DNA from: an uncultured virus (IMG/VR IMGVR_UViG_3300046169_000098) | Taxonomy: Duplodnaviria; Heunggongvirae; Uroviricota; Caudoviricetes | DNA: 64,000 nucleotides | IMG/VR virus record: IMGVR_UViG_3300046169_000098 | Direction: 5' to 3' (one strand) | Program-made: the position numbers and the translations under genes | Shown: piece by piece, positions 543 to 60,886 of the stretch | How positions within the stretch are numbered: position 1 is the stretch's first letter | How the letters are laid out: each line of letters begins with the position of its first letter | The notes under the pieces: model-generated | Seen by the model: only the letters and a program-made list of their open reading frames with translations | Told to the model about the DNA's origin: nothing | The model's database searches: none

Positions 543-929
543 TTATTTCTTAAATTTATCTTTTACCCTTTGACTAATAGGAATTGCCTCCCCTTGTTCA
601 TCTATTCTAACAAATTTAATATTTGTAGCAAGAATAATAGCTTGCCTTCCATCATACACATTATGTGATCTAGCCTCAACCTTTAATATTACTGAAGTTC
701 TACCTATGGTTTCTACTTCTCCGTAAATTTTAAGTAAATGTCCTTCTTTTGCAGGTTTCTTAAATACACACTCGTCAATAAGTACTGTTACCATTCTTGG
801 CGTATCACATACCTGTGATGCATAAGATGCGCCAGCTGCATCTACCCATGCCAAAAGTTTACCACCGAAAAGATTACCATGAAAACCCAAATCTGATTTT
901 TTAACCGGGTGTGTTGAAATTAATTCCAT
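543..929 (-). CDS. Acyl-CoA thioesterase (hotdog fold, YciA-like)
   Basis: DLGFHGNLFGGKLLAWVD, VTV, GRTS and FVRID motifs. Confidence 0.85.
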   Translation of the reverse strand: MELISTHPVKKSDLGFHGNLFGGKLLAWVDAAGASYASQVCDTPRMVTVLIDECVFKKPAKEGHLLKIYGEVETIGRTSVILKVEARSHNVYDGRQAIILATNIKFVRIDEQGEAIPISQRVKDKFKK

Positions 930-2068
930 TAAATAGTCTTTTTAAATTTATCTGATTCTATTTGTTTTATCTTTATTGCAACTTCTGGTCCTTTGATGCC
1001 GAACTCTTTCATTACATCCTTACCATTAGTAGTTGGTTTATATTTAAAGAACGCCTTCAGTGTTTTAATATCTAATTTGTGTATTTTTGCAAATTCGAGA
1101 ACTTCTTTCTTGTCCATGTTAGTGTTTTTAAATTGCTTATGTAAATTAAACACGTCATTTACATCGAACGCCATGATTCTCTTTAAGAAAATACATGCAT
1201 CAATCTCATCATTAGTAAATGTAAGTTTGTTCATTTCTTTTTTATGTTCATTGGCAATAAACAGTGTACCTAATTGAACAAGCCAAGTATTGGTGTCTAT
1301 GAATTTTTTATTGATCTCTAATGTAGGAAACATAACAGACCACAAGTTGAATTCAGAGACCATCTCTAAGTACTTCTTAGCGGACTTAGCAGAAACTATA
1401 GATTTTTTAAACTCATCTCTAATTCTCTCTGCACTAATACCTTCTAAACTATTATCTGTTAAAATGGCATTAGCAGTTTCTTCTTCTAAGTTTGATCCAG
1501 TTCTACCAGCAAATCTTAAAGCTCTTAGTTTTCTTAAGGGATCTTCAGCAAATCTGTCAGCTGCAACACCAACAGTTCTAATCTTTGAATTTTTTATATC
1601 ATCTAAACCACCTACTAAATCAACAACCTCTTGTCTACCCATGTCATAGAACAGTGCATTGATTGTTAAATCTCGTCTTAGTACATCTTTATCAATGGTA
1701 GAATACTCAACTGCATCTGGCCTTCTACCCTTTCCAATATCTTCTCTAAAAGTGGCAATCTCAACACCTGCTGGATCAGAAGGTACATTTACAATAACTA
1801 CGCCAAATTGGTGTCCAACTTCGCCTGTTGTTGAATAACCTCCTTTAGTAACAATATCAATAACTTCTGCAGGAAATGCGTCAGTAGCCAAATCAAAATC
1901 TTTTGGTTTTTTACCTAATAATGCATCTCGTACTGCACCGCCAACTACGTACAATTCTTTACCATTCTTTTTGAAAAGATTGTATAAGTCTAATATATCC
2001 GAAGGTACATTAACTTTAAGTTTGGTTTCAGCTTCTCTAAGAAGCATAAAGTTACTAAATTTTTGCAT
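929..2068 (-). CDS. cca: Class II tRNA nucleotidyltransferase (CCA-adding enzyme/poly(A) polymerase family)
   Basis: VGGAVRD..LG..PKDFDLAT, EIATFR, DVLRRDLTINALFY, EDPLRKLRALRF and ISAERIRDE motifs; adjacent to the tRNA cluster. Confidence 0.9.
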   Translation of the reverse strand: MQKFSNFMLLREAETKLKVNVPSDILDLYNLFKKNGKELYVVGGAVRDALLGKKPKDFDLATDAFPAEVIDIVTKGGYSTTGEVGHQFGVVIVNVPSDPAGVEIATFREDIGKGRRPDAVEYSTIDKDVLRRDLTINALFYDMGRQEVVDLVGGLDDIKNSKIRTVGVAADRFAEDPLRKLRALRFAGRTGSNLEEETANAILTDNSLEGISAERIRDEFKKSIVSAKSAKKYLEMVSEFNLWSVMFPTLEINKKFIDTNTWLVQLGTLFIANEHKKEMNKLTFTNDEIDACIFLKRIMAFDVNDVFNLHKQFKNTNMDKKEVLEFAKIHKLDIKTLKAFFKYKPTTNGKDVMKEFGIKGPEVAIKIKQIESDKFKKTI

Positions 2069-2236: not shown

Positions 2237-2261
2237 TTAATAAATCATAGTTGCCTTTGGG

Positions 2262-2335
2262 TAGGGATGGCGGGGTTCGAACCCACGACCTTGACTATAT
2301 AAGAGTCCTGCTCTAACCAACTGAGCTACATCCCC
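2262..2335 (-). tRNA. tRNA-Ile(UAU), no exact CCA
   Basis: GGGGATGTAGCTCAGTTGGTTAGAGCAGGACT-CT-TAT-AT-AGTCAAGGTCGTGGGTTCGAACCCCGCCATCCCTA. Confidence 0.9.
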
Positions 2336-2489
2336 ATGTTGAAAACACCTATAATCTATGTAGAGGTGCAAGACTCGATCTATGATCTATTTGTTTAGCA
2401 AGTCAAATAACTTTTAAAATCTTGGTTTGTTAGATTTGATAGTTATATTAAGCTGATTTGAAAGGTTTCAGTGAAATGGTGTTAAAATG

Positions 2490-2926: not shown

Positions 2927-3385
2927 TTATTGGATAGAGTCTGTAAGGATAATAATTTCAGGTAGAACTAGAGGCTTAATTTCTATATGATCTTTTTCGC
3001 CATTAACCTTTCTTTGTGAATAACAATAGACCGGATGTCCATCGGAATCATAATAAAAATATTCTTTAGTTTTAGGGTCTAGAAACGCTCTATAGATTCC
3101 ATTGTTCTCATCTACATAGATCATTTGTCCATTTTCAGTATCAGATCTAAGTCCGATAGAGAATGTTTTCTTCTTATTAGTTCTGTCACTTTCATATTGA
3201 TCTATGTGAGTTTCTATTCTCTGCATAGATTTATGAATTTGCTCGTACTCATTAACTAATTTATTAAGGTCAGATGCATAGTCAACAATTGGGCTAATGT
3301 AACCAATTAATGTAACCAATGCACCAATAGCAGTAACTGTAAAAATAACGTTACCGAATTTATTTTTGAATTCTGTGAATGACAT
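2927..3385 (-). CDS. Hypothetical membrane-anchored protein
   Basis: N-terminal hydrophobic helix followed by a coiled-coil-like stretch; late-type motif at 3406-3413. Confidence 0.7.
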   Translation of the reverse strand: MSFTEFKNKFGNVIFTVTAIGALVTLIGYISPIVDYASDLNKLVNEYEQIHKSMQRIETHIDQYESDRTNKKKTFSIGLRSDTENGQMIYVDENNGIYRAFLDPKTKEYFYYDSDGHPVYCYSQRKVNGEKDHIEIKPLVLPEIIILTDSIQ

Positions 3386-3417: not shown

Positions 3418-3843
3418 TTATAGCACAATTTTAAGTCCTACGTTAAGATAGTTTAAATCTCTTCTAATTTGCAAAATTCTACTCGTAAGCCAGATAGATT
3501 TATATAACTTAATATCTCCACCATATTGTGCAACCATTAAGCCACTATTGTTATTTAATTTATACAGAGGTCCAGCAGATAATTTAATTCTATCGAGTGG
3601 TTGATATTGATAGCTCAAGAACACGTATGCAGAATTCATATGGCCTTCGCCCATCAGATGAGTTCCTAAAGAGATGTTGTTATAATCCATTGAAAACGCT
3701 AAGCCAGATGCGTGGAAACAACTAACCCAAGCTGCAGTAAAATCTACATCATCATTTACTTCCCACTTATCAACCTTATGATATGGTGAGCAATCTTGAG
3801 CCCACATCATTGTACTAAAAAGAAGTGCCACCAACAACCTCAT
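3418..3843 (-). CDS. Secreted, probable outer-membrane beta-barrel protein
   Basis: True start is MRLLVALLFSTMMWAQ at 3843 (the longer ORF runs through tRNAs); signal peptide, amphipathic beta strands, C-terminal YLNVGLKIVL. Confidence 0.6.
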   Translation of the reverse strand: MRLLVALLFSTMMWAQDCSPYHKVDKWEVNDDVDFTAAWVSCFHASGLAFSMDYNNISLGTHLMGEGHMNSAYVFLSYQYQPLDRIKLSAGPLYKLNNNSGLMVAQYGGDIKLYKSIWLTSRILQIRRDLNYLNVGLKIVL

Positions 3844-3862
3844 ACTCTCTCTCTTTCTTTTT

Positions 3863-3939
3863 TGGCGGTCTGGACGAGACTCGAACTCGCGACCCCTTGC
3901 GTGACAGGCAAGTATTCTAACCAACTGAACTACCAGACC
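3863..3939 (-). tRNA. tRNA-Asp(GUC) with CCA
   Basis: GGTCTGGTAGTTCAGTTGGTTAGAATACTTGC-CT-GTC-AC-GCAAG...CAGACCGCCA. Confidence 0.95.
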
Positions 3940-3941
3940 AA

Positions 3942-4029
3942 TGGCGGAGAGGGAGGGATTCGAACCCCCGGTACCTTGCAGTACGCTTGATTTCAAGTCA
4001 AGTGCATTCGACCACTCTGCCACCTCTCC
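3942..4029 (-). tRNA. tRNA-Ser(UGA) with CCA
   Basis: GGAGAGGTGGCAGAGTGGTCGAATGCACTTGA-CT-TGA-AA-TCAAG, long variable arm, ends CTCTCCGCCA. Confidence 0.95.
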
Positions 4030-4131
4030 GAGGTTTATATATTTAAATTACTCCACTTAGACTCCGTCTTTCGACTTGTAGGCGTGAGATTTGACGCCTC
4101 GTTGTTCGGCTTGTTAAACCTATCTAAGAGC

Positions 4132-4248
4132 TGGGGAGTAGGGGACTTCGAACCCCTACTTCTGCCAACAAGCCTAATCACACCTCGTAACTAGTATGAT
4201 GTTTTCGGCCTTATAGCTGGAGCGTCGTACCTATTTGACTAACTCCCC
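4132..4248 (-). ncRNA. tRNA-like RNA with a greatly extended anticodon arm
   Basis: Acceptor stem GGGGAGT/ACTCCCC+A, D arm GTC/GAC with GG loop, T arm AGGGG-TTCGAAGT-CCCCT; a ~60-nt hairpin replaces the anticodon arm. Confidence 0.7.
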
Positions 4249-4256
4249 ATATTTAG

Positions 4257-4330
4257 TGAACCAGACAGGATTCGAACCTGTGACCGTCTGCTTAGAAGGC
4301 AGATGCTCTATCCAGCTGAGCTACTGGTCC
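4257..4330 (-). tRNA. tRNA-Arg(UCU), no encoded CCA
   Basis: GGACCAGTAGCTCAGCTGGATAGAGCATCTGC-CT-TCT-AA-GCAGA... Confidence 0.95.
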
Positions 4331-4584: not shown

Positions 4585-5197
4585 TTATTTTGTCATTGAT
4601 TCTTGAATCAAAATCTTACCCCTACGGATACGATTCTTAACAGTTTGAAGAGGCACACCATACTTTGATGCAATATCTTCGTATTTCATGTTGTTAAGTA
4701 GACGATCTTCGATAATATCTCGATACATTGGCTTTAGATCTTGAATTGCTTTTAGTGCCAATTCATAAGAATTCATAAGTGCTTCGTCTTCTTCAATAAA
4801 ATCTGCTTCGGTTTTACTCTCAATCTCAATAAGAAGATCATGAGCTGATGTATGAGAATAGTGTTCTGAGATTTCAATACCATATTCTTTCATTGCATCG
4901 ATGCTATACTTTACGATTACGTTGACGAATCCAACCAAGACATTCATTAAAGGCAATACGATAAAGCCATGTAGTGATTTGATATTTAGGATCATACTGA
5001 TCTATCTTGGTCCACATCTTCGTAAGAGTATTTGTCAAAATATCATCTGTAGCTTCATTATCTTTGACCACATTATGAATGTAGTTTTTCAAACCTGGCT
5101 TCACACGAACGTAAAGCGCATTATAATCTTTTTCTGATTTAGAATTGATGAAATTCTCTGATAGCTGACGGTAGCTTAACTCTTTTGATTTTGACAT
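4585..5197 (-). CDS. ECF-type sigma-70 factor (one frameshift near 4910)
   Basis: Region 2 (DDILTNTLTKMW...TTWLYRIAFNECL) in ORF 4904-5197; region 4 HTH (YEDIASKYGVPLQTVKNRIRRGK) in ORF 4585-4995; the two join if one A is removed. Confidence 0.85.
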
Positions 5198-11842: not shown

Positions 11843-13133
11843 TTAAATGTCTCTTGGTGTTTCATACACCGCTTTAATTACTGGAAATCTTAGTGAGTGA
11901 GTTCCATTCATATTTGTTGTTTCTTCAAAGTATTGAACTGTGATTTGTTTTCCTAAAATCTGATTAGGATTTTGGAAATAGTATCTACGTTGCTCATGAT
12001 TAAAGCCACTGCCGACTTGTACGCGATTTCCTTTGTGTTCAATAATAACATTCTTCAACATTACTTCTTCAACCTCTGCACCATCGACAATAACCCTATG
12101 TGTATCATTTTCAAGATCAACGACAATATATTCATCGTCAAAGAATTTCTTAACTTTAAGAACATCATTAGAACGCTTGCCTTTATAAGTTGTATCTTTA
12201 CGCAACATAAGACCTTCCCAACCTTCACGTTTTGACTTTTCCATCATAGTTTCCATCACCATGTCATCTGCCAAAATCTGTTTTAAAACTCCAATGTAAT
12301 CGTCATCCATTACATATGCTCTTGCAGTTTCAAGTCTTTCAGAAAGTGTAGTGATAGATTCTTTATCTGCAAAATCTTTAGAAGTCAATAAATCAAAGAT
12401 ATAATAGAATGGCTTTTCAATAGTATGATCTTTTCGTTTGATCTCTTTAATAATACCTTGAAAATCTTCATTACCATTTTCATCTACTACACAAACTTCT
12501 CCGTCAAAAACCATGTTAGTTAGGACCAAGCTTCTCAATAGATGGCTTAAGATTGTCAAGAGTCAAAAACTCTTTACCTTGTCTTGAGTAAAATTTAACT
12601 TTACCTTTATCATCAATAACACCAAGACACCTAACTCCATCAAGTTTACGACTTGCATACCAACCATCGTTCCAATCTACTTTTTTCTTAGTCTTCTCGT
12701 CGTATGCTTGAGCGAGTGCCACATCAAATGTAGGAATTAAGCCGGGTTTTACTTTATTGATCATAGATGTGGTAGACCTAGTCTTTAAGTTACGATCGAT
12801 GATATTCCAAATAAGATCTGCATAAAGCGGATTATCTGACACATATCGGTTAACTGATTTAATTGCATCGTGACCGGTAAGAGTTCTATCGTTTAGATAA
12901 TCTAACAACAAGAAAAAGTCTTCAAATTGGTGGTAAGGACTTACCAAATCTGAATTTTTCTTACAATTAGCAGAAGTTACACCATATTGTTTAAATGTGT
13001 CGTAAGTATAATTAAGTGCCTTACACACAATATCATACTGAGTATATTCTTTGATAACTTCTAGTTTATCTGAATTAGAGTTCGTAGCATTTGATGCTTC
13101 AACGAAATCTGCAATAAGTTGAAAATCTGTCAT
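11843..13133 (-). CDS. lig: ATP-dependent DNA ligase (frameshift near 12523)
   Basis: KLDGVR, FDGE, EGLMLR, LKVK and SLRFP motifs across two ORFs. Confidence 0.9.
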
Positions 13134-13138
13134 GTCTT

Positions 13139-13369
13139 TTATTTTTTTAACCATAAATTATAAACGTAATCGTAACTCGTGTTTAATTGTTCTGCTAATT
13201 TAGAAAATAATCTTTCTCTAATAATACTATCACCTACACCAATATATGAATACACGTCGTTGGTTGTAATTATATTATTTAGCAAACCTGCAAAAGTTGC
13301 GCTTTCATCGATCTCAGTACCCAAATCATCGCTTGGATAGTTCTCTAAGTAAAATTGTTTAATTGTCAT
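13139..13369 (-). CDS. Hypothetical early protein
   Basis: Directly behind the duplicated early promoter/leader. Confidence 0.7.
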   Translation of the reverse strand: MTIKQFYLENYPSDDLGTEIDESATFAGLLNNIITTNDVYSYIGVGDSIIRERLFSKLAEQLNTSYDYVYNLWLKK

Positions 13370-22572: not shown

Positions 22573-25444
22573 TTATGCAAAGTTACCTGTTGCGATTTCT
22601 CCTGTATTCAAGATTGTTACTCTCGATACTAAGATTTCAAGACCTTTAACTGGCTCAACGTAAGTATCTAAAATACCCATGTTGTTGTCAATAACTTCGT
22701 TAGTGTTGTTAGTTCCGTCCATGATGTTTCTGTAATCGTAAACACCTTGATCTTTCTTAACTGACTCCATAAAGTTGTCTGCTAAAGTTTTAATCTCTAA
22801 TCTAGTTTGAGCAGTATTAAACTCGAACAAGTAGTTCTTCAATATCTCAGCTAAACCATCTTCGATGTAGATCATTGCTTCTCTAACGTGTGCAGAAGAT
22901 AATGCTGATTGAATTCCTTGTTGTGCAGTTTTGTTACCTTTGATTGTAAGACCAACGCCTCTTTCGAATACGATTGGGTTGTAACCAAATGGCTCAAGTA
23001 CATCTCTGTCATTCTTATCGAATGCAAATTCAACACTTTGTACACCTGTACCACCAACAACACCTCTTCTTGGTCCTGCGATGATTGACCATGGTAAAGC
23101 ACTTGTATACTTATCAATGTAGTTGTTAGATACGTAACCTGCTGGTGGAATTACCAACGTTTTACCGTTCTCAAGTACATTTAAACCAGGACCATAGTAG
23201 AATCCGTAGTTAGCACCTTCGTTGATTGAAGGTAGTGTATACAATAATGATGGATTTAAATCTAAATTACCACCAGTTGCTATTCGTGTTAACATCAAAT
23301 GCTCCAGATAAAGTATTTAAGAATGAAGGATTTGTTGATTTCTTCAATTCTTTTACCATTGGTGCATTTAGGATAGCTGATGCGTTTTGTCTTTCTTTAC
23401 AAAGAAGTGTTAATTCTTCTTTATTTAAGATAGTACCATCTTCTAATGATCCAAAAGTATCAACAACATATCTAAATGTAATGTTATCTTTGTCTACTAA
23501 TGCATTACCTAAACCAGTACCTGGCTTAATTGCTGCCATTAATTCTGCAATTTTCTTAGGCGTATGTGTTGCGCCATTTAATGGGAACATTGTATAAAGT
23601 TCAGTAGATTCTTCGTATCTCTTAAGAGCATGTCCAGGTCTTTCGTTCTCAACATCTCTATGAACTTGGAATTCATATTTAGTAGTTGTACCATCTACAA
23701 CTTTTACTTTTCTTTGAATTTTAGCTAAGTTTCCGCTTTTAGTAGGAATGTACATTCCAACCTTAACGTCTGCCCAGTTAAATGGATCTAGTTCTGTACC
23801 AGTGTAAGAGTAAATAATTTTACCTGCACCCATATCATCAAAGCTCCATCCTGAACCAACGTTTGGTAATAATACCGCTCTGTCGTTAGGATCAACCACA
23901 GATACTAATGCCGTTTCGGTTGCTTTTCTAACTGAAGCTTGTAATGTAGTAATACCTGTTAAGCCGTTGAAAGATGCAGAGAATGCTTCTCCACCTGCAG
24001 GTGCGATTCTAATTTGATCTCCGTCTTGACCATAATTAACATCAACTGCTGAAATAGCAACAAATTCACCATTAGATGCACTTGGTAAGAAGTTTCCTTC
24101 TAATACTTGACCTTGTGTCCATGCGTTACTTGATATGATAAGAGAACCATCAACATCAACTGTAATATCTACGCCTGTTACCCATGTAGCCGGTGCAACA
24201 TTTGCAGCGTCACTGTCATATGCTTCATATTCAACTTTGTCAAAAGTACCTTCTTCAGTTTTAATAGTAGAACCTATAATGTTGCCAGATCCGTCTACTC
24301 TGTTTTCAACAGATGAGATTTGTAACCATTCTCCTGAAACTGATGAGTTTAAGAATTTACCAGGTACAACTGGAGTTGATAATAGTGCTAAATCTGCAGC
24401 AGATAAATCAGCTACTTCTAATTCATTACCATCAACAATCATTACTTTACCAAATTCAACGTCATCTGATGTTACAGTTTGGTCAACTCTGTGTGAAAGT
24501 ACTTGATAATCTTGGTAGATATTAAAGTTTTTACCTACTAGATCGATTCTTTCTAATGCTTCTTCATTAATTGCACAGAATAAACCAGTTCTTCTAGCTT
24601 CAAGATTAATTAAAGTCTCAATGTATAATTGACGACCTTCATTATCCATAAAGTCAGGAATAAGTGATCCAGTGTATTGTGCTAATAAAGTAACTTCTCT
24701 TAGTGCAGCAAATTTTGAAAGCTCAGATCTTTTAAGACCGCTTTGTTCAAACATTTCACCATATGTTGGGTCATTGTTTAATGTAGCTGCATCAAACTTA
24801 CCTTTGAAGATCATTACATCTACCATGTAGTCAGATACGTATTCTAATTCTTCGATTCCTTCTGGAATGTTAGCTTCTCCGTACCATTCTCTTGCTGTTA
24901 AGTTAAAACCTTCAGTGTTAGCAGCTTGTCTGATAATGATAGTAATAGGATCTTGCTTGATATTTACAAATGAAATTGCGTTATCAGAAGTCTCTTCTTC
25001 ATTATTTGCAGCAGCTAATAATTTATAGTCAGCTGGATTCCAGAATTTATCTGTATCGAAAACTGCACTATATTGTGCTTCTAAGTTTATTGCCGTTCCA
25101 CCTTCTTGACCAGAATTAGTTGAAGGAGATACAATTGCTACTTTGTCAGCTGCGTCTGCTTCAGTTAAGTTTAATGCCAAGATTGGGCCTCTTGATAGAG
25201 TTTCGATTGCAGATCTGTGGAAAAACATTCCTTTCTTTTCTAAAGACTTATCTACACCGCCAAAAACTTGTGTGAACTGTTCAACATCTTCGATGAATAC
25301 TGGAGTATTGTAAGGACCTTTTTTAGATCTACCTACAACTAATCTAATAGTTTCAGCTGGAATGTTAACAGTCTGTGATTTGTCAAACTCTAGACGATAT
25401 ACGCCTGAGCTTTTGAACTGTTGTAATTGAGGACTTAATGCCAT
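22573..25444 (-). CDS. gp18: Tail sheath protein (gp18-like; frameshift near 23288)
   Basis: SSGVYRLEFDKS, KGPYNTP, PWSIIAGPRRG, GNKT, LFEFNT..TR motifs. Confidence 0.9.
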
Positions 25445-49315: not shown

Positions 49316-50634
49316 TTATATTCCGTGTAAGTTTGAATTTGTAATGTCGTCGGTTTCAATTAGCCTCATGTAATTCCAATTAATATTCAATTTACACTTA
49401 GTTCCTTTGCCCTCGCCGTCCCTAATTTTTAAAATCTTAAGCCAATATTCGTCATTAGCTCGCATAAGATCATCTTGTATAATACCTAACATGATGTCTG
49501 CTGTGTGAGAAAGACCTGCAGATTCTGCAACGTCTGTCATTGAAATGTCTGAAGAATTGTAGCCATTTCTATTTATCTGAGTCGCTGTGACTATCAACCA
49601 ATCATTTCTAATACCCATAGCCCTAAGATCTTCTGCAATTTGCTTGATCTTCATATAAGTATTTTCCGTATTTAAATTTCTGTAGTTTGCTAAGATGTTT
49701 ATGTAATCTACCACAACTGCACCAATCTTAATCTGACGCTCTTCTTCAATTTGACTAACATATGCTTCAATATCTAATACTGTTGCCTGTGACGTTGGCA
49801 TTTGCTTAATAAATAGTTGACCAGGGTGGTGTAAATCCATCACCAACTGTTTCTAATCTTCTCTTAATGTGATCTTTATTCTTTGCCTTTTTCTGCGTAT
49901 TCATTAATGTTTACACTAAGAAGATTTGATCCAATTCTCTTTACAAATTTATGAGCTGCCATTTCTGCGGTAATAACCACAGTGTTGGTTCCCATTTTTA
50001 CAAAGTTTGCTGCATCATTTGCTAGATATATTGACTTACCAATATTTTGTTCTCCGGCATATACGATTAGGTTACCTCCCTTATCATATCCACCTCCTAA
50101 AAGCCTGTCAATAAAATTATATCCTGAACTTACCTTTTCTGATTCTTTTTGATCGTGTGATTCTACATCAAAGAAATCTAAACCAAGATCAGAATTAAAA
50201 CTAAGATTGTTTCTTTCATTAATAAGACCTTTAACCTTTTGGATAACAGTGTCTGCGTTCTCAGGTGTTACCTTAGTAGTCTTAATAAATTCTATAGTAT
50301 CTATTAGTGTGGTGTCAAAGGTGCGCCATTTAATCCAAGATTCAGCTGTAGTAGTTAACCATTCTTCGTCATATTGATCAAGATCTGTTTTAAATACTAG
50401 GTCTAATAAATCTTCATTAATCTTTTCCTTTGCCCTTTCATGTCTATTAACCAATAACCATAACTGCTCTTTACTTGGTGTTTCATGAAATTTATCATAA
50501 AACTTATTAGCTAAATAACTTAACAGATCTATTTCTTCAGAAGTATAAAAACTTTTCTTAATACTCTGTAGATATTTAGGCTTGATTAATGATAACCTAA
50601 AAAATATTTTTTCAAAATCTTGACCGAATTGCAT
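49316..50634 (-). CDS. gp41: Replicative DnaB-like helicase (gp41-like; frameshift near 49890)
   Basis: GEQNIGKS, ITAEM, VVDYIN, IAEDLR, TATQINR, ESAGL..TAD, KIRDG. Confidence 0.9.
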
Positions 50635-53065: not shown

Positions 53066-54274
53066 TTAAAATAACGACGATGCGTAAATTAGATTAGTGT
53101 CCAGTGTTTGTAGACCAATTGCTGTCAATACTCTATTAAGAGGATCAATCATTGCTTTTTCAAATTGAGTGTCGTAATCAATTTCTGGAGCAATTTCATA
53201 AGGGTGTTCATTTGGCATATATGCATATACTTCAGATATCGGTGATTTACAGTTATAAATCTTTAGCTTTTCACCGTTACCAATAACCTTATATTTGTTT
53301 TTATACTTTTTATTGTTATTTAGTAGATAGTTATAATATCCTGCGGCTTTAACATTGGCTGGACATTTTAGTCCTATCTGAAATTCTGTCTGATCATCTA
53401 CAATATACTTATCGATATTGTTGGTTCTTCTATTAAATGAAATCTCATCAATATCTGCTAGTTTAAATTGTTTCTTGGTTTCCTTCATAAAAACAACCAA
53501 TGATTGTAGATCTTCTGCAGTTGGAGTTACTCTACTTTTAAAGATAATTTTAAGTGCTTCTACTAGTTTTTCTCTAACAAATTTGGGTGTTGAAGATTGA
53601 ATCGTATCAAACCCAATTGTCTTAATTTTCTTCAATGATTTATGACGGTCTGTGATCTCTAACTTATCGTCCCACGCTATGTTTTGAATATACTTTTTCT
53701 TAGACATCCAAATACCATTGTATGCGAGTGCCTCTAGTTCGAACATTAAATAATTATCTGTGTTTCTTTTCTCTGCGTATTTTTCCATGGTTTTAGATAT
53801 GTAATCTTTTAATCTAAATCCATAAAGTGCTAAAATAAACACATCAATTTCCATCTTCTCTGTTTCTTCTGGCCAAATTATTGATTCATACAAATCTTGG
53901 AACTGTACGTAACATGAATCTGTATCAATATAAATTACTGCAGGTTTTTCAATTTTACCTTTTACTTTAATGCCGAAGTGTGAGTGGACTGCTGTGTCTT
54001 TGTGCCAAAACTCATTAACGTATTTATTGAGAATTGTTTCTGAGTAGAGAATTGCATTTTTGCCTTGTTTTGTAATTGACTCGGCAATGTCAATATTAAA
54101 AAAGTGGAACCACTTATTACCGAAGGCTCCGTAGATCGAGTTTAGTGTTAACTTAACTGCTTGTTCATATGCTGTATATTTGGCTGAAAGCTGCTTGTAG
54201 TGATCTACAAGCAGCTTCGCCTCATTATCAGTCAATTCCTCGATAGATTTATTTTCTAGCGCTTCGATGTTCAT
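53066..54274 (-). CDS. Family B DNA polymerase, C-terminal subunit (gp43B-like)
   Basis: KLTLNSIYGAFGN (motif B), YIDTDS (motif C), KKKY. Confidence 0.9.
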   Translation of the reverse strand: MNIEALENKSIEELTDNEAKLLVDHYKQLSAKYTAYEQAVKLTLNSIYGAFGNKWFHFFNIDIAESITKQGKNAILYSETILNKYVNEFWHKDTAVHSHFGIKVKGKIEKPAVIYIDTDSCYVQFQDLYESIIWPEETEKMEIDVFILALYGFRLKDYISKTMEKYAEKRNTDNYLMFELEALAYNGIWMSKKKYIQNIAWDDKLEITDRHKSLKKIKTIGFDTIQSSTPKFVREKLVEALKIIFKSRVTPTAEDLQSLVVFMKETKKQFKLADIDEISFNRRTNNIDKYIVDDQTEFQIGLKCPANVKAAGYYNYLLNNNKKYKNKYKVIGNGEKLKIYNCKSPISEVYAYMPNEHPYEIAPEIDYDTQFEKAMIDPLNRVLTAIGLQTLDTNLIYASSLF

Positions 54275-54276
54275 AC

Positions 54277-55020
54277 TTATGCTGTTTGACAAGTTGAAAC
54301 AGTTAGTAATGTATTTGTGTCATTGGAGTTAAAAACAACCTTTGATCCTGAAACATATACTGTTTGTTCGTCTTTGTCAAGTAAGCTTAAGTACTTTTTA
54401 TAAACTGTTACTTCACCATTTCCGCTTGTATCTGGATTGATTACAACGCTAAATGATTTACCACTTACGCTTACACCTGATACATCAGATTTAATGCTAA
54501 ATGTTTCATCTTTATCTAGTGAAAATAGATTTTTAACTTTACCTATCATGTGAGTGTCAAAGCTAAAGTCAAATTTACTATCTTCTCTTGCAAAGATTGC
54601 ATCAATCTGATCTTGTGTAAGATCTTTAAAGCCAAGTGAAGGCTCTGAACAAGCTAAAGTAATTTCTAGCTCATCATTGAAAATACGTAGCGAAGATGCT
54701 ACTAATTCATTGTCGTTTTCGATGAATTCAATTTCACCTTTAATTGCATCTGCATCAAAGTGCTTAATAGCTTCGATTACTTTGTTACCTTCAAAGAATG
54801 CAATTTTCATTTCTTTGTCAGTTTCTGGCCATTCTTCTACTTGAAAAATAGTACTTACTTCTACTGAGTGATGTTTTACTGCATCTCTTTGTGGAAGATA
54901 AACTGTTGAATTAATTGTTCCATCTGCAATTTTCATGTAAATGAAAGAATCAATCGGTTTTACTCTGTTGATGAATGCTGTTAAAGCATGCTGGTCAATA
55001 CGATCTAATTTAAGTTTCAT
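54277..55020 (-). CDS. Probable sliding clamp (gp45-like)
   Basis: 247 aa, acidic, beta-rich, adjacent to the polymerase gene. Confidence 0.6.
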   Translation of the reverse strand: MKLKLDRIDQHALTAFINRVKPIDSFIYMKIADGTINSTVYLPQRDAVKHHSVEVSTIFQVEEWPETDKEMKIAFFEGNKVIEAIKHFDADAIKGEIEFIENDNELVASSLRIFNDELEITLACSEPSLGFKDLTQDQIDAIFAREDSKFDFSFDTHMIGKVKNLFSLDKDETFSIKSDVSGVSVSGKSFSVVINPDTSGNGEVTVYKKYLSLLDKDEQTVYVSGSKVVFNSNDTNTLLTVSTCQTA

Positions 55021-59470: not shown

Positions 59471-60886
59471 TTAGACCTTAATTTTTTTCTTTAATTTTTT
59501 TTCTAGTTCATGGGCTTTTTCATAATACTCGTAAGAAGTTCTTTTATAGTCCTTTCTTTGACCATATAAATCTGCTAGTATCTTTTTAAGAATACTATCT
59601 TCTTTCTTATATACAACACCGTTTTCGCAGACAATGACATCTTTGTCTTTTCTTCTTTCTGGAATTTCCATTTCATTCACTTGTTCAATAAATGCATCCG
59701 GAGATATATTAAATTGACGCATGATTGATGGATACAGAGATGCAAAGTCAAACGCAGAAACTCCAGAGTAATAGCCTACAATAGGCTGTTTAACAAATGC
59801 TCCTTCGAATTTGCCATCTTTTTTAGCATCTTCTTTATTCCATTCCATTCCAATTTTTTTATTTTGACCTATCAACTTTCTAGCTATAAGTGCTTCAGTT
59901 ACTGCCACTGGAGATGCTGCTTTATAAAGCGGCATTCTTGTGATAGTTGCCAATGTCAATAGTACTTCCATGGATCTAAGTTGTTGATCTATGTAATATA
60001 CCAGGCAAGAATCGACTACGTTATAGTAAATGTACTTTTGAAAATTATCTTCATAAAGTTCTTGTAATCCACCAGTGTATTTGATTTTTGCAACATCTAA
60101 TACTGAGCTCGATACAAAATCTAAAGAATTAGATTCTTTTACTGCAACTGATCTATCATATTTATCATATAATTGCATGTAATCGAGAATACCCATGTGC
60201 AATGGTCTACTATCATTTCGATCTAGTGATCCAGTGATAGCCACATCAGTCAGGTCGATTTGTAATCTCTTACATCTGTTTACTATATACTGCCAGTCAT
60301 AGTTAATGAAGTTCCAACCAGTCATCATTGGGAACTTAGGTAAAAACTTATGTAAGAAACTATAAACCATGTTATACTCGTCGTCAAACTTGTAATAACT
60401 AAATTCCCAGTCTTGATCATAATCTTTGAAGTGTTTATTGGTATCTTCTTCAATTTTCTTGATCTGATCAGAACTCATGTCTTCTAAACCTAAAACAATT
60501 GCTTTGCGCTCGGGTGTAATAATAGAAAACGATAGAATTCTAGTTTTTGCTTCTTCTGCTTTTGGGAATCCATCTACAATTTCAGTTTCAATATCCACAA
60601 AGTATGTACGTGGCATATTAAATTCAAAGATTTCTTCTTGATCTTTTTCAGGCAATGAATCCATGAAATAGAGCAGGCTAAATTTATTAAAACTTCTAGA
60701 GATAGATCTTTTAATAGGTCTATTATCCCAATTCCTAAACTTAACATCTTTCCAACGATCCTTTTCTTCAGTAACTACCCAATTTTCAAATTTATTTACA
60801 GAATATCTTTTAAAGGAAACTTTACCTTCCTTATCGTAGTAACTAATAATAACTTCGTTTTCTTTTTGCTCTATGTCTAGTAACAT
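59471..60886 (-). CDS. Family B DNA polymerase, N-terminal subunit (exonuclease + motif A; gp43A-like)
   Basis: DIET, GWNFINYD, YNVVD, FDFASLYPSIM; ends in the fingers helix. Confidence 0.9.
   Translation of the reverse strand: MLLDIEQKENEVIISYYDKEGKVSFKRYSVNKFENWVVTEEKDRWKDVKFRNWDNRPIKRSISRSFNKFSLLYFMDSLPEKDQEEIFEFNMPRTYFVDIETEIVDGFPKAEEAKTRILSFSIITPERKAIVLGLEDMSSDQIKKIEEDTNKHFKDYDQDWEFSYYKFDDEYNMVYSFLHKFLPKFPMMTGWNFINYDWQYIVNRCKRLQIDLTDVAITGSLDRNDSRPLHMGILDYMQLYDKYDRSVAVKESNSLDFVSSSVLDVAKIKYTGGLQELYEDNFQKYIYYNVVDSCLVYYIDQQLRSMEVLLTLATITRMPLYKAASPVAVTEALIARKLIGQNKKIGMEWNKEDAKKDGKFEGAFVKQPIVGYYSGVSAFDFASLYPSIMRQFNISPDAFIEQVNEMEIPERRKDKDVIVCENGVVYKKEDSILKKILADLYGQRKDYKRTSYEYYEKAHELEKKLKKKIKV

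What the first reader, a model, noticed from the sequence alone, without database searches (positions are those of the whole stretch)
4132..4248. tRNA-like RNA with intact acceptor, D and T arms but a ~60-nt anticodon arm
Seen on the minus strand: GGGGAGT TA GTC AAATAGGTAC GAC G [CT CCAGC TATA AGGCC GAAAAC ATCATAC TAGTTACGAG GTGTGAT TA GGCTT GTTGG C AG] AAGT AGGGG TTCGAAGT CCCCT ACTCCCC A. The bracket folds as nested stems CCAGC/GTTGG, AGGCC/GGCTT and ATCATAC/GTGTGAT. It starts 8 nt after tRNA-Arg in the cluster. It has no G3-U70 and no tag ORF (not tmRNA), is not circularly permuted like YrlA Y RNAs, and the insert is too short for a group I intron. Inference: a processed, CCA-addable tRNA mimic (decoy for anticodon nucleases, or ribosome/synthetase ligand), or a tRNA with a protein-spliced intron.
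Basis: partly seen in the sequence, partly recalled or inferred. Interest (0 to 1): 0.75.

Follow-up and report, generated by a model that had tools for sequence, protein, structure and literature searches.

The report
tRNA-shaped phage RNA with knotted tail
The odd tRNA look-alike is real, but it is only the front half of a roughly 200-base RNA gene shared by many uncultured marine phages, whose back half is a tightly conserved, knotted RNA fold that matches no described RNA family and whose job is still unknown.

Summary
The 117-nt element (window 4132-4248, minus strand) is as described. It has intact acceptor, D and T arms and a roughly 60-nt rod in place of the anticodon arm. ARAGORN misses it. 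Rfam's tRNA model scores 39.6 bits (cut-off 29) only with relaxed filters, with a 57-nt insertion.

This domain is a four-way junction locked by a pseudoknot.

Pattern scans of viral and metagenome collections gave 91 distinct tRNA-like plus 3' domain composites, all from uncultured marine phage contigs. The 3' domain was always preceded by an anticodon-less tRNA-like.

Covariation supports the acceptor and T stems, the middle of the rod, and helix P1 and the pseudoknot of the 3' domain. Two divergent members keep P1 and the pseudoknot with entirely different sequences.

No Rfam family, GenBank phage record or paper found in four searches matches it.

In two divergent lineages a CCA-adding-type nucleotidyltransferase gene lies downstream.

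Best reading: a non-decoding tRNA mimic fused to a conserved effector or processing domain, acting at the discriminator junction. The function is untested. A new self-cleaving ribozyme remains possible.

The scan has noted other tRNA-shelled phage RNAs before, but not this family.

The parts
4132..4248 (-). tRNA-like 5' domain (117 nt): acceptor 4242-4248 with 4133-4139, discriminator A at 4132, D arm 4224-4239, T arm 4140-4157
   Evidence: RF00005 39.6 bits with a 57-nt insertion; MFE cloverleaf, z -3.83. Across 89 distinct homologues the acceptor pairs are 87-100% canonical and the T stem pairs 98-100%, with several pair types at each position.
4162..4222 (-). Long arm replacing the anticodon arm. 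It has a basal stem with a bulged C, a CUAUAAG heptamer (a possible vestige of an anticodon loop), a middle stem AGGCC/GGCUU, and an apex carrying AUACUAGUUAC.
Evidence: The middle stem covaries at two pairs (A-U to G-C in 10 of 24, C-G to U-A in 8 of 24). An apex motif containing CUAG occurs in 67 of 89 distinct arms and in the divergent member L225.
4146..4146 (-). Private extra G in the T loop, giving an 8-nt loop
   Evidence: Absent from G001, L018, L019 and L020. It is the only 8-nt T loop among 89. It is left out in contigs of all 4 runs laid.
4051..4131 (-). Conserved 3' domain (81 nt): a four-way junction plus pseudoknot that starts directly after the discriminator. Parts: invariant G1 C2 U3 (4129-4131); P1 4123-4128 with 4056-4061; hairpin A 4108-4120; junction GAACAACGA 4099-4107; hairpin B 4081-4098; junction UACAA 4076-4080; hairpin C (GAAA loop) 4066-4075; GGAG 4062-4065.
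   Evidence: Covariance model R1 scores 101.6 bits here; the next best hit in the 64-kb window is 11.2 bits. In 61 distinct sequences 97.7% of cells pair, against 29-45% when partners are slid. 9 of 21 pairs change on both sides, and 0 of 500 shuffles reach the covariation score. No Rfam match.
4086..4088 (-). Pseudoknot, 5' strand: CUC in the loop of hairpin B
   Evidence: Pairs with the 3' tail GAG. It is 100% paired in 61 distinct sequences, with C-G 46 / U-A 10 / U-G 5 and U-A 44 / C-G 13 / U-G 4 at the two variable pairs. L224 has CUAGC/GCUAG and L225 has UCC/GGA instead.
4051..4053 (-). Pseudoknot, 3' strand: GAG, the last three bases of the domain
   Evidence: As above.
4110..4110 (-). 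Private extra G in hairpin A
   Evidence: Absent from G001, L018 and L020. Left out in contigs of all 4 runs laid.
4257..4330 (-). tRNA-Arg(UCU), the upstream neighbour with an 8-nt spacer; it has no encoded CCA
   Evidence: A tRNA-Arg(UCU) precedes 24 of 91 distinct composites.
3942..4029 (-). tRNA-Ser(UGA), the downstream neighbour, 21 nt after the 3' domain
   Evidence: 18 of 91 composites have a tRNA within 40 nt downstream.
929..2068 (-). CCA-adding-type tRNA nucleotidyltransferase gene, same strand, about 2 kb downstream at the end of the tRNA cluster
   Evidence: Pfam PolyA_pol head domain at 2e-32 plus the RNA-binding domain; PHROG tRNA nucleotidyltransferase at 1.5e-57. A 29%-identical homologue starts about 100 nt after the composite in 17 distinct loci of another lineage.

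Best explanation
Window 4051-4248 (minus strand) is one gene for a roughly 198-nt composite small RNA of marine T4-like phages.

The 5' half is a tRNA shell. It keeps the acceptor stem, D arm and T arm but carries a lineage-variable rod where the anticodon arm should be, so it cannot decode.

The 3' half begins at the very next base after the discriminator. It folds into a four-way junction whose hairpin-B loop pairs with the last three bases (a pseudoknot).

Proposed mechanism: the tRNA shell makes the transcript a client of the tRNA end-processing machinery. RNase P cuts at the conserved AAAYAY|G 5' junction. The functional site is the discriminator|G1 junction, where the two halves are separated, either by an RNase Z-type cut or by the 3' domain cutting itself. 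The shell is then a substrate for the phage's CCA-adding enzyme, and the 3' domain is released as a compact, exonuclease-resistant RNA.

Shown here: the family exists, the two halves are obligately linked with fixed spacing, the structures hold, the element is restricted to phage contigs, and a nucleotidyltransferase gene is a neighbour.

Inferred: every enzymatic step, the cleavage itself, and what either product then does.

The confidence given is for the mechanism. That this is a selected composite RNA family I hold at about 0.9.
For: Linkage: a pattern from the 3' domain core alone found 24 viral loci, all preceded by a long-armed tRNA-like. Wider patterns gave 165 complete matches out of 170, the other 5 being cut by contig ends. 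These make 91 distinct composites. None of the 91 is called a tRNA by default ARAGORN. RF00005 recognises 11 of 15 sampled at 36-51 bits.

Fixed spacing: with exactly one discriminator base assumed before G1, acceptor pairs are 87-100% canonical over 89 distinct sequences. The discriminator is A in 71, C in 13, U in 6 and G in 1 of 91.

3' domain structure. P1 and the pseudoknot are fully compensated in L224 and L225, which R1 scores at 39.6 and 60.7 bits.

Junction sequences: they stay invariant even when left free in the search pattern (31 of 31).

Copy number: single copy per genome.

Context: no CCA is encoded, and a CCA-adding-type gene lies downstream in two lineages that are 29% identical. 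The leader AAAYAY precedes G+1 both in tRNA-cluster and stand-alone contexts.

Precedent: theta ribozymes abut phage tRNA 3' ends. Those tRNAs rarely encode CCA, and those phages are 250-fold enriched for the CCA enzyme gene (PMC10879173, passages read).
Against: No cleavage, CCA addition or even transcription is shown.

In three marine RNA-library runs, contigs run unbroken across the discriminator|G1 junction and on past the 3' domain. This is what an uncleaved unit, a precursor or carried-over DNA would give.

The 3' domain never follows an ordinary tRNA, not even the CCA-less tRNA-Arg next door. That is odd if its only role were 3' processing.

The CCA-enzyme link is not universal. The records G002 and G003 (65% and 56% complete) show no homologue.

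All members were found by exact sequence patterns, so the apparent invariance of the anchor motifs is partly ascertainment.
Confidence: 0.45

Rival explanations
1. [quoted passage not shown] It cuts between the discriminator and its own G1, releasing the tRNA-like with a 2',3'-cyclic phosphate. This would make it a marine counterpart of the gut-phage theta (HDV-like) ribozymes.
For: The first base G1 abuts the discriminator in all 91 composites, and the base before it varies freely.

G1 and C2 are conserved even in the divergent L224 and L225.

The fold is compact and pseudoknotted with invariant junction nucleotides.

P1 is followed directly by a mini-helix formed with a hairpin loop. By inspection this recalls P1/P1.1 of HDV-like ribozymes.

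The same genomic signature holds as for theta ribozymes: CCA-less tRNA partners plus a phage CCA-enzyme gene.
Against: No known ribozyme family matches.

The order of helices does not fit the HDV fold, and no candidate catalytic C in a J4/2-like strand can be named (inspection).

Hatchet has a P1 hairpin after its cleavage site, unlike here (PMC4604424, passages).

Contigs from RNA libraries bridge the junction.

New ribozyme classes are rare.
Confidence: 0.25
2. The RNA works uncleaved, as one tRNA-shaped adaptor or decoy. The shell docks on a tRNA-binding partner (RNase P, CCA-adding enzyme, EF-Tu, the ribosome or a tRNA-targeting defence nuclease). The 3' domain sits where CCA-aminoacyl would be and blocks or exploits that partner's active site.
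For: The two halves are obligately linked and rigidly spaced, with at most two to three unpaired bases between the acceptor helix and P1.

The rod apex carries a motif kept across very divergent members, AAUACUAGUU in the window type and in L225. Both ends therefore look functional.

Contigs from RNA libraries cross the junction.
Against: No partner is identified. Neighbouring genes other than the nucleotidyltransferase are unannotated or unrelated. The contig evidence cannot separate RNA from DNA.
Confidence: 0.3
3. It is a real decoding tRNA gene interrupted by a roughly 40-nt intron next to the anticodon loop, removed by an unknown protein or RNA activity.
For: With introns allowed, ARAGORN of 91 as intron-bearing tRNAs.

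In the L027/L106 subgroup, deleting exactly 40 nt leaves a 5-6-bp stem and a canonical loop. The loop is CUUCUAA (Arg UCU), CUUUUAA (Lys UUU) or UUCUUAA (Lys CUU).

These are anticodons that AT-rich phages commonly carry, as in this window's own tRNA set.
Against: The calls are inconsistent: 40 different isotype/anticodon/intron combinations, including Stop and Tyr(AUA). The middle anticodon base differs among near-identical bodies.

Only 19 of 89 pass a strict Y32-U33..R37 test, and the window does not. Its heptamer CUAUAAG would give anticodon AUA.

The 'loop' bases are largely paired within the rod, and the rod's middle stem covaries.

No bulge-helix-bulge motif was seen by inspection.

Contigs of RNA libraries keep the insert, and no internal joint was seen.

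This reading does not explain the 3' domain.
Confidence: 0.08
4. It is a decaying pseudo-tRNA or an insertion scar with no function.
For: The window's own copy has two private 1-nt insertions, one in the T loop and one in hairpin A. Close relatives with a 94%-identical CCA enzyme lack the whole block.
Against: There are 91 distinct composites with compensatory changes in the acceptor, T, rod, P1 and pseudoknot helices. The element is single copy and occurs in both stand-alone and tRNA-cluster contexts.
Confidence: 0.03
5. It is a cis-regulatory leader of the nucleotidyltransferase gene. The enzyme, or uncharged or CCA-less tRNA, binds the tRNA-like leader and controls expression downstream.
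For: In 17 distinct loci the enzyme gene starts about 100 nt downstream on the same strand, and no terminator was called between them.
Against: In the window five tRNAs and two ORFs lie between the two. In G002 the composite sits among unrelated genes, and no homologue of the enzyme was found in that (65% complete) record. AT-rich promoter-like boxes lie between the RNA and the ORF.
Confidence: 0.1

Closest known systems
Bacteriophage T4 species 1 and 2 stable RNAs (rnaC 139 nt, rnaD 119 nt)
   Same: They are small stable RNAs of unknown function inside a T4-type tRNA cluster, placed directly after tRNA-Arg (T4 order: tRNA-Arg, rnaD, rnaC). rnaC has a tRNA-type T arm and long extra arms.
   Different: No sequence or model similarity. 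R1 finds nothing in the T4 tRNA region. RF00005 does not match rnaC or rnaD; the best hit is a tRNA-Sec match at 17.5 bits. In T4 the two RNAs are separate genes 6 nt apart, and the tRNA-like one comes second. That they are processed by RNase P and receive CCA is my recollection and was not checked here.
Theta (minimal HDV-like) ribozymes of gut phages (PMC10879173; abstract and passages read)
   Same: A structured RNA whose first base G1 abuts the 3' end of a phage tRNA. The partner tRNAs mostly lack encoded CCA, and a CCA-adding enzyme gene is enriched in those phages.
   Different: Theta ribozymes have the HDV double-pseudoknot fold, follow ordinary decoding tRNAs of many isotypes, and are mostly from gut phages. 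Here the fold is a four-way junction plus a loop-tail pseudoknot, the partner is always an anticodon-less tRNA-like, and all members come from marine samples. Catalysis is untested here.
Canonical tRNA (Rfam RF00005)
   Same: Acceptor stem, D arm, T arm with a GTTCGAATC-type loop, U8/A9, and a 4-5-nt variable region.
   Different: There is no 5-bp/7-nt anticodon arm. A 57-90-nt rod stands in its place. No CCA is encoded and there is no free 3' end in the gene. ARAGORN's default run rejects all 91.
Murine gammaherpesvirus 68 tRNA-miRNA units, and mascRNA at the MALAT1 3' end (both recalled from memory, not read here)
   Same: A non-decoding viral or cellular tRNA-like fused directly to another functional RNA. 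The tRNA-processing enzymes cut at the tRNA-like's ends to define both products.
   Different: These are eukaryotic systems using RNase Z and RNase P. The partner RNAs (pre-miRNA hairpins, a triple-helix lncRNA end) are unrelated to the 3' domain here.
tmRNA and YrlA-type bacterial Y RNAs
   Same: RNAs that combine a tRNA-like module with a second functional domain.
   Different: There is no G3-U70, no tag reading frame kept across members (domain lengths differ by non-multiples of 3), no permutation, and no Rfam match.

Membership tests
tRNA (RF00005) | Cloverleaf core: 7-bp acceptor stem, D arm, 5-bp T stem with a 7-nt T loop | tested here: met
   39.6 bits with a full-length model match. 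Stems are 87-100% paired over 89 distinct homologues. The window's own T loop has 8 nt.
tRNA (RF00005) | 5-bp anticodon stem with a 7-nt loop (U33, R37) presenting an anticodon | tested here: not met
   A 57-nt insertion replaces it. ARAGORN's default run of 91. The strict loop test is passed by 19 of 89, not by the window.
tRNA (RF00005) | 3' CCA end and aminoacylation | not testable with these tools
   No CCA is encoded; the discriminator is followed by GCUCUU.
tmRNA | G3-U70 alanine identity pair, tag reading frame, and detection by ARAGORN or Rfam tmRNA models | tested here: not met
   G3 pairs with C70. ARAGORN reports no tmRNA. The best Rfam tmRNA-type hit is 16.2 bits against a cut-off of 47, and it lies elsewhere.
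YrlA / bacterial Y RNA | Match to RF02553; permuted tRNA-like module on a Ro-binding stem | tested here: not met
   The only YrlA hit (20.8 bits, cut-off 69) lies on tRNA-Ser/Asp, not on this element. The element is collinear with tRNA.
HDV-like / theta ribozyme | First nucleotide G1 placed at the 3' end of a tRNA | tested here: met
   G1 follows the discriminator in all 91 distinct composites.
HDV-like / theta ribozyme | Nested double pseudoknot in the order P1-P2-P3-P1-P1.1-P4-J4/2(C)-P2 | tested here: not met
   The supported helices form a four-way junction. The only pseudoknot is between the hairpin-B loop and the 3' tail, and nothing follows it. No Rfam HDV-type hit.
HDV-like / theta ribozyme | Self-cleavage in vitro | not testable with these tools
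   Needs a transcription and cleavage assay.
Hatchet ribozyme | Cleavage site 5' of a P1 hairpin, then P2-P4, usually with a P0 hairpin upstream; match to the Rfam model | tested here: not met
   P1 here closes a four-way junction. Hatchet architecture taken from PMC4604424 passages. No Rfam hit.
T4 rnaC / rnaD | Position directly after tRNA-Arg in a T4-type tRNA cluster | tested here: met
   T4 order is tRNA-Arg, rnaD, rnaC. In the window the order is tRNA-Arg, an 8-nt spacer, then the composite. 24 of 91 composites follow tRNA-Arg.
T4 rnaC / rnaD | Sequence or structure homology | tested here: not met
   R1 finds no hit in the T4 region. No family is shared in Rfam. blastn of the window element against 50,697 phage records finds nothing.
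Intron-bearing tRNA (group I or protein-spliced) | A group I intron fold, or a consistent splice position that restores one conserved anticodon arm | tested here: inconclusive
   No group I hit, and the insert is only 57 nt. ARAGORN -i of 91 but with inconsistent anticodons. One subgroup has a clean 40-nt deletion solution; the window does not.

The most novel reading that the evidence does not exclude
The 81-nt 3' domain is a previously unknown class of self-cleaving ribozyme that trims the 3' end of a dedicated, non-decoding tRNA mimic in marine T4-like phages. If so, ribozyme-made tRNA-type 3' ends arose at least twice in phages (theta ribozymes in the gut, this fold in the sea), and the released CCA-tailed mimic would be the active product.
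Probability: 0.25. Interest if true: 0.9.

Novelty: new variant of a known kind. Interest (0 to 1): 0.72.

Why it matters
Phage tRNA clusters have held unexplained tRNA-like stable RNAs since the T4 species 1 and 2 RNAs. This finding gives a large, covariation-supported family in which the tRNA mimic is welded to a second, more conserved fold. That offers a concrete handle on what such mimics do.

The 3' domain is an 80-nt pseudoknotted motif with about 30 invariant junction bases and no match in Rfam. It is therefore a candidate new ribozyme, ligand sensor or protein-binding RNA.

Its recurrent pairing with a phage CCA-adding-type enzyme points to tRNA 3'-end biology in abundant ocean phages, such as repair, quality control or counter-defence.

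A bench test is cheap: transcribe 200 nt and look for cleavage, RNase P or RNase Z processing, and CCA addition.

Tried and rejected
1. GenBank phage records: blastn with the element and with the 3' domain gave nothing usable. A wider query matched only neighbouring tRNAs.

2. Close relatives found through the CCA enzyme (16 loci) did not carry the element, so homologues had to be found by DNA patterns.

3. Prokaryote genomes: the full pattern gave 0 hits. The core pattern gave 2 MAG contigs, which are probably phage contigs binned into MAGs. I draw no host from them.

4. Sequencing runs: only assembled contigs were served, so no starts, ends, strand, CCA tails or expression level can be read.
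   - Contigs of 3 RNA-library runs cover 4046-4239 at depth 3-15.
   - Two of them end at 4239, 9 nt inside the 5' end. This is a weak hint at most.
   - The single joint (4029 to 4267) is a tRNA-to-tRNA join, either a variant without the block or cross-similarity. It is not splicing.

5. Threading the 3' domain onto the HDV-like, hatchet, hammerhead, pistol and twister layouts by hand gave no fit, and Rfam is negative.

6. A tmRNA-like tag reading frame through the 3' domain is rejected. Members differ in length by 1-2 nt within the would-be frame, and the stop is not kept.

7. Pairing of the 3' tail GUGGAG with the 5' GCUC, or with the acceptor 3' strand, is rejected. The tail covaries with the hairpin-B loop instead, and the acceptor sequences vary independently.

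8. Kissing-loop dimerisation through apex palindromes (ACUAGU, GCUAGC, GAUAUC, GAGCUC, UGAUCA): 87 of 90 arms have a 6-nt palindrome, but 62.7 are expected in shuffles. Folding places them only partly in loops. I keep this as an observation only.

9. The sigma-70 consensus scan calls no promoter in front of a stand-alone copy. A TATAA box 12-17 nt upstream occurs in 24 of 41 distinct flanks. Its likeness to the T4 late promoter is my recollection.

10. Flanking ORFs other than the nucleotidyltransferase had no informative family.

11. I suspected that the window's two 1-nt insertions were assembly errors because several genes look split. However, G001 matches at 100% identity (as reported) over the same length at the tail-sheath split, so that test says nothing.

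12. Literature:
   - Searches for the core sequence strings found no paper.
   - So did searches for tRNA-like/long anticodon/ribozyme/bacteriophage and for tRNA-like/CCA-adding enzyme/phage/marine.
   - A search for the T4 species 1 RNA found nothing describing this RNA.
   - Subscription-only papers and supplements were not seen.

13. The scan's earlier notes hold no look-alike by sequence or in this genome.
Full report
OBSERVATION

It starts 8 nt after the discriminator of tRNA-Arg(UCU).
- On its own it folds to -43.0 kcal/mol. None of 200 dinucleotide shuffles folds as well (z = -3.83). The minimum-energy structure is a cloverleaf with one long central arm.
- ARAGORN's default run finds 9 tRNAs in the window but not this element. 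Rfam at gathering thresholds finds the same 9.
- When 801 bases are searched with relaxed filters, the tRNA model RF00005 matches 4132-4248 from model position 1 to 71. The score is 39.6 bits (curated cut-off 29), with 57 bases where the model expects 13.
- No other Rfam family reaches significance on the element or on the 100 bases after it.

The window is a roughly 34% GC phage genome with a T4-type portal, sheath, terminase, UvsX and clamp loader. The nearest held record, G001 (212 kb), shares 82% of sampled words.

THE ELEMENT IS HALF OF A LARGER CONSERVED UNIT

Relatives found through the downstream CCA-adding enzyme did not help. Two with 94% identical enzymes have a compact tRNA cluster without the element, and the rest have no tRNAs nearby.

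DNA patterns did help.
- The three first homologues (G001, L018, L019/L020) showed that the roughly 80-100 bases after the tRNA-like are conserved with it. They change in a compensatory way: UUAGA/UCUAA becomes UUGGA/UCCAA, and small hairpins swap stems but keep GNRA loops.
- A pattern drawn only from the core of that downstream stretch found 24 viral contigs. In every one the stretch is directly preceded by a long-armed tRNA-like, often of very different sequence.
- Looser patterns found 32 true viral contigs plus one coding false positive, and 108 stretches in marine metagenome contigs.
- Of 170 pattern matches held, 165 are complete and 5 are cut by contig ends.
- They collapse to 91 distinct composites, 61 distinct 3' domains and 89 distinct tRNA-likes.
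- A pattern that leaves the junction strands free returned 31 contigs. All 31 still carry GAACAACGA, UACAA and GAGUYYAAGUGG.
- The full pattern has no match in one genome each of 185,579 prokaryote species. The core pattern hits two MAG contigs, L224 and L225, which are divergent members.
- GenBank phage records hold nothing similar.

THE 3' DOMAIN (WINDOW 4051-4131)

Numbering starts from G1, the base after the discriminator.
- G1-C2-U3 are invariant and unpaired.
- P1 pairs C4-A9 with U71-G76.
- Hairpin A runs from G12 to C24.
- The junction GAACAACGA follows.
- Hairpin B has stem GGCGU/ACGCC with loop CAAAUCUC.
- The junction UACAA follows.
- Hairpin C has 2-3 bp and mostly a GAAA loop.
- GGAG follows, then the P1 3' strand, then U77-G78.
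- The last three bases G79-A80-G81 pair with C44-U45-C46 of the hairpin-B loop.

Counts on 61 distinct sequences aligned to a covariance model (the unfitted MAFFT alignment gives 96.7%):
- 97.7% of cells form standard pairs. The figure is 29-45% when the 3' partners are slid by 1-3 columns.
- 9 of 21 pairs change on both sides.
- No shuffle out of 500 reaches the observed covariation score.
- The pseudoknot is paired in every sequence, with C-G 46 / U-A 10 / U-G 5 at one pair and U-A 44 / C-G 13 / U-G 4 at the next.
- Some members carry an extra covarying mini-hairpin inside the hairpin-B loop.

The two divergent members, by inspection:
- L225 has P1 AUU(U)CC/GGAAU and pseudoknot UCC/GGA.
- L224 has P1 UUUAU/AUAAA, hairpin A CUGG/CCAG and a 5-bp pseudoknot CUAGC/GCUAG.
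- Both keep G1-C2, UAG before hairpin A, both junction strands, the hairpin-B stem and GAG.
- Model R1 scores them at 60.7 and 39.6 bits.

R1 finds exactly one copy in the window (101.6 bits; the next hit is 11.2 bits) and one each in G001-G003. It finds none in eight relatives that lack the element.

Caveat: the family was collected with exact patterns, so more divergent members are unseen. The model-fitted alignment also leans towards the structure it was built from.

THE tRNA-LIKE DOMAIN ACROSS THE FAMILY

With the acceptor 3' strand taken as the 7 bases before a single discriminator, results over 89 distinct sequences are:
- The seven acceptor pairs are 87-100% canonical, with many pair types (for example GGGGAGU/ACUCCCC, GGCCCGG/UCGGGCC, GGUGAUA/UAUCAUC).
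- The T stem is 98-100% canonical.
- U8-A9-G10 is TAG in 75.
- 88 have a 7-nt T loop.
- The fit at a fixed offset shows that the spacing between the acceptor stem and G1 is always exactly one base. That base is A in 71, C in 13, U in 6 and G in 1 of the 91 distinct composites.

RF00005 recognises 11 of 15 sampled members at 35.8-51.5 bits. Default ARAGORN recognises none of 91. Lengths run from 110 to 146 nt because the central arm varies.

In the window's own subgroup (24 distinct sequences):
- The basal stem is 91% paired.
- The middle stem covaries at two pairs.
- A 4-bp helix in another register fits better (93.5%).

The apex motif AUACUAGUU, or AUGCUAGC in another subgroup, is widely kept and recurs in the very divergent L225. 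Six-base palindromes at that spot vary but stay palindromic (GCUAGC, GAUAUC, GAGCUC in the same context). Palindromes are common by chance in these AT-rich arms, with 87 of 90 observed against 62.7 in shuffles.

IS IT A SPLIT tRNA?

With introns allowed, ARAGORN of 91 as intron-bearing tRNAs. It makes 40 different isotype/anticodon/intron calls. The window comes out as Val(UAC) with a 27-nt intron, which cuts across the covarying stem.

In one large subgroup, removing exactly 40 nt after the heptamer leaves a 5-6-bp stem and a canonical loop (CUUCUAA, CUUUUAA or UUCUUAA). That is clean enough to suggest the family arose from a tRNA, perhaps tRNA-Arg(UCU), by an insertion next to the anticodon loop.

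Against a working intron:
- The middle 'anticodon' base differs among nearly identical bodies.
- Only 19 of 89 pass a strict loop test, and the window's heptamer CUAUAAG would give the unnatural anticodon AUA.
- Contigs from RNA libraries retain the insert.

I treat the loop as a vestige and give the intron reading about 0.08.

CONTEXT

- 36 of 91 composites follow a tRNA by 6-22 nt: 24 follow Arg(UCU), 4 Ile, 4 Gln, 3 Phe and 1 Leu. The other 55 have no tRNA in front. 18 are followed by a tRNA within 40 nt.
- In G002 the gene lies more than 20 kb from any other tRNA, among unannotated genes.
- Stand-alone copies have a TATAA box 12-17 nt upstream in 24 of 41 distinct flanks. In every context AAAYAY precedes the 5' G.
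- The simple sigma-70 scan calls no promoter or terminator there.
- In 17 distinct loci a 241-aa PolyA_pol-head nucleotidyltransferase starts about 100 nt downstream on the same strand. It is 29% identical to the window's 379-aa tRNA nucleotidyltransferase (ORF 929-2068), which closes the window's tRNA cluster on the same strand.
- G002 and G003 (65% and 56% complete) show no homologue.
- The composite encodes no CCA. Of the neighbouring tRNAs, Arg also lacks one, while Leu, Ser and Asp encode it.

THE WINDOW'S OWN COPY

It has two private one-base insertions, an extra G in the T loop (4146) and an extra G in hairpin A (4110). Both are absent from G001, L018 and L020 (the T-loop base also from L019), and from contigs of all four sequencing runs laid. 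Three of those four runs also read C instead of A at the discriminator. I cannot tell whether these are real or assembly errors.

RNA EVIDENCE

Only assembled contigs were served. Contigs of three marine RNA-library runs cover 4046-4239 continuously at depth 3-15. They therefore cross the discriminator|G1 junction and run on beyond the 3' domain. Two of them end at 4239. This cannot separate RNA from carried-over DNA, and it shows no ends. It mildly disfavours complete cleavage.

HOW IT MOST LIKELY WORKS

Established here:
- A single-copy, phage-restricted gene.
- A selected tRNA shell that cannot decode.
- A selected pseudoknotted 3' domain.
- The two are always together at fixed register.
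- A recurrent nucleotidyltransferase neighbour.

My committed reading (about 0.45) is that the shell recruits the tRNA end-processing enzymes and that the action is at the discriminator|G1 junction.
1. RNase P defines the 5' end.
2. The halves are separated after the discriminator.
3. The shell is CCA-tailed by the phage enzyme.
4. The 3' domain is released as a stable structured RNA.

Who cuts is open.
- A protein (RNase Z-type) is the conservative choice.
- Self-cleavage by the 3' domain (0.25) would explain the invariant G1-C2, the free choice of the base before it, and the parallel with theta ribozymes. Those also abut CCA-less phage tRNAs in phages enriched 250-fold for a CCA enzyme (PMC10879173, passages).
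- The main rival (0.3) is that nothing is cut and the RNA acts whole, as a tRNA-shaped adaptor or decoy whose 3' domain occupies the place of the CCA-aminoacyl end. This fits the exclusive pairing with anticodon-less shells and the bridging contigs.

KNOWN RELATIVES AND NOVELTY

- The nearest in kind are the T4 species 1 and 2 RNAs. They have the same position after tRNA-Arg but no detectable homology.
- Next are theta ribozymes, which have the same placement and genomic signature but a different fold and different partners.
- By recollection, herpesviral tRNA-miRNA units and mascRNA are also comparable.
- It is not a tmRNA, Y RNA, hatchet or HDV-type RNA by the tests listed.
- Four literature searches and Rfam 15 found no description. 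Subscription journals and supplementary files were not seen.
- The scan's earlier notes describe other tRNA-shelled phage RNAs (e1-5381408, e1-5350245), but no look-alike of this family.

I class it as a new variant of a known kind: phage tRNA-like stable RNAs, or tRNA-abutting structured RNAs. The 3' domain is a new RNA motif.

Noticed in passing
window 3860-4250 and 2480-2570, compared with L002/L003: Two phages whose CCA enzyme is 94% identical have a compact cluster Leu-Arg-Asp-Glu-Gln-Ile-Lys. The window additionally has the composite RNA plus tRNA-Ser between Arg and Asp, two ORFs (2927-3385, 3418-3858) between Asp and Glu, and a tRNA-Pro. The cluster gains and loses blocks between close relatives. 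In L018 the composite is followed by a second tRNA-Leu instead of Ser.
   Followed up: partly
window 22576-25444; 11846-13154; 49319-50634; 53069-54292 with 59474-60886: Several core genes appear as two adjacent or overlapping ORFs: tail sheath, ATP-dependent DNA ligase, DnaB-like helicase, and family-B DNA polymerase (its halves are 5 kb apart with ribonucleotide reductase genes between them). G001 matches at 100% identity (as reported) over the same length at the sheath split, so that one is not a private error of this assembly.
   Followed up: partly
window 4585-4995 (-): A 136-aa protein consisting of little more than sigma-70 region 4 sits directly upstream of the tRNA cluster.
   Followed up: no
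window 546-929 (-): A 4HBT-type thioesterase gene directly follows the CCA-adding enzyme gene.
   Followed up: no
apex of the long arm, window about 4190-4197; same place in L053, L106, L117, L126, L066: The apex carries six-base palindromes that differ between subgroups but stay palindromic (ACUAGU, GCUAGC, GAGCUC, GAUAUC, UGAUCA). This is reminiscent of kissing-loop dimerisation sites. Overall enrichment over shuffles is modest (87 of 90 against 62.7).
   Followed up: partly
L053, L106 and relatives (tRNA-like positions about 27-40): In one subgroup the rod still contains a perfect anticodon-loop heptamer (CUUCUAA, CUUUUAA, CUUAUAA, UUCUUAA) followed by an insert of exactly 40 nt. This suggests the family arose from a tRNA-Arg(UCU)-like gene by insertion at position 38/39.
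   Followed up: partly
6 nt before the 5' G of the tRNA-like in all contexts (window 4249-4254): The leader AAAYAY (AAAUAU here) is conserved whether the element follows a tRNA or stands alone behind a TATAA box. It is possibly a preferred RNase P context.
   Followed up: no
L225 (MAG contig), both flanks of the composite: Near-identical strong promoter-like repeats (TTGACT, then 17 nt, then CATAAT or TACTTAT) flank the composite on both sides. This looks like a phage early region binned into a bacterial MAG.
   Followed up: no
window 2258-2336 (-): ARAGORN gives tRNA-Ile(UAU) as 79 nt with the anticodon at position 36, while Rfam places the tRNA at 2262-2335. The ends disagree by 1-4 nt.
   Followed up: no
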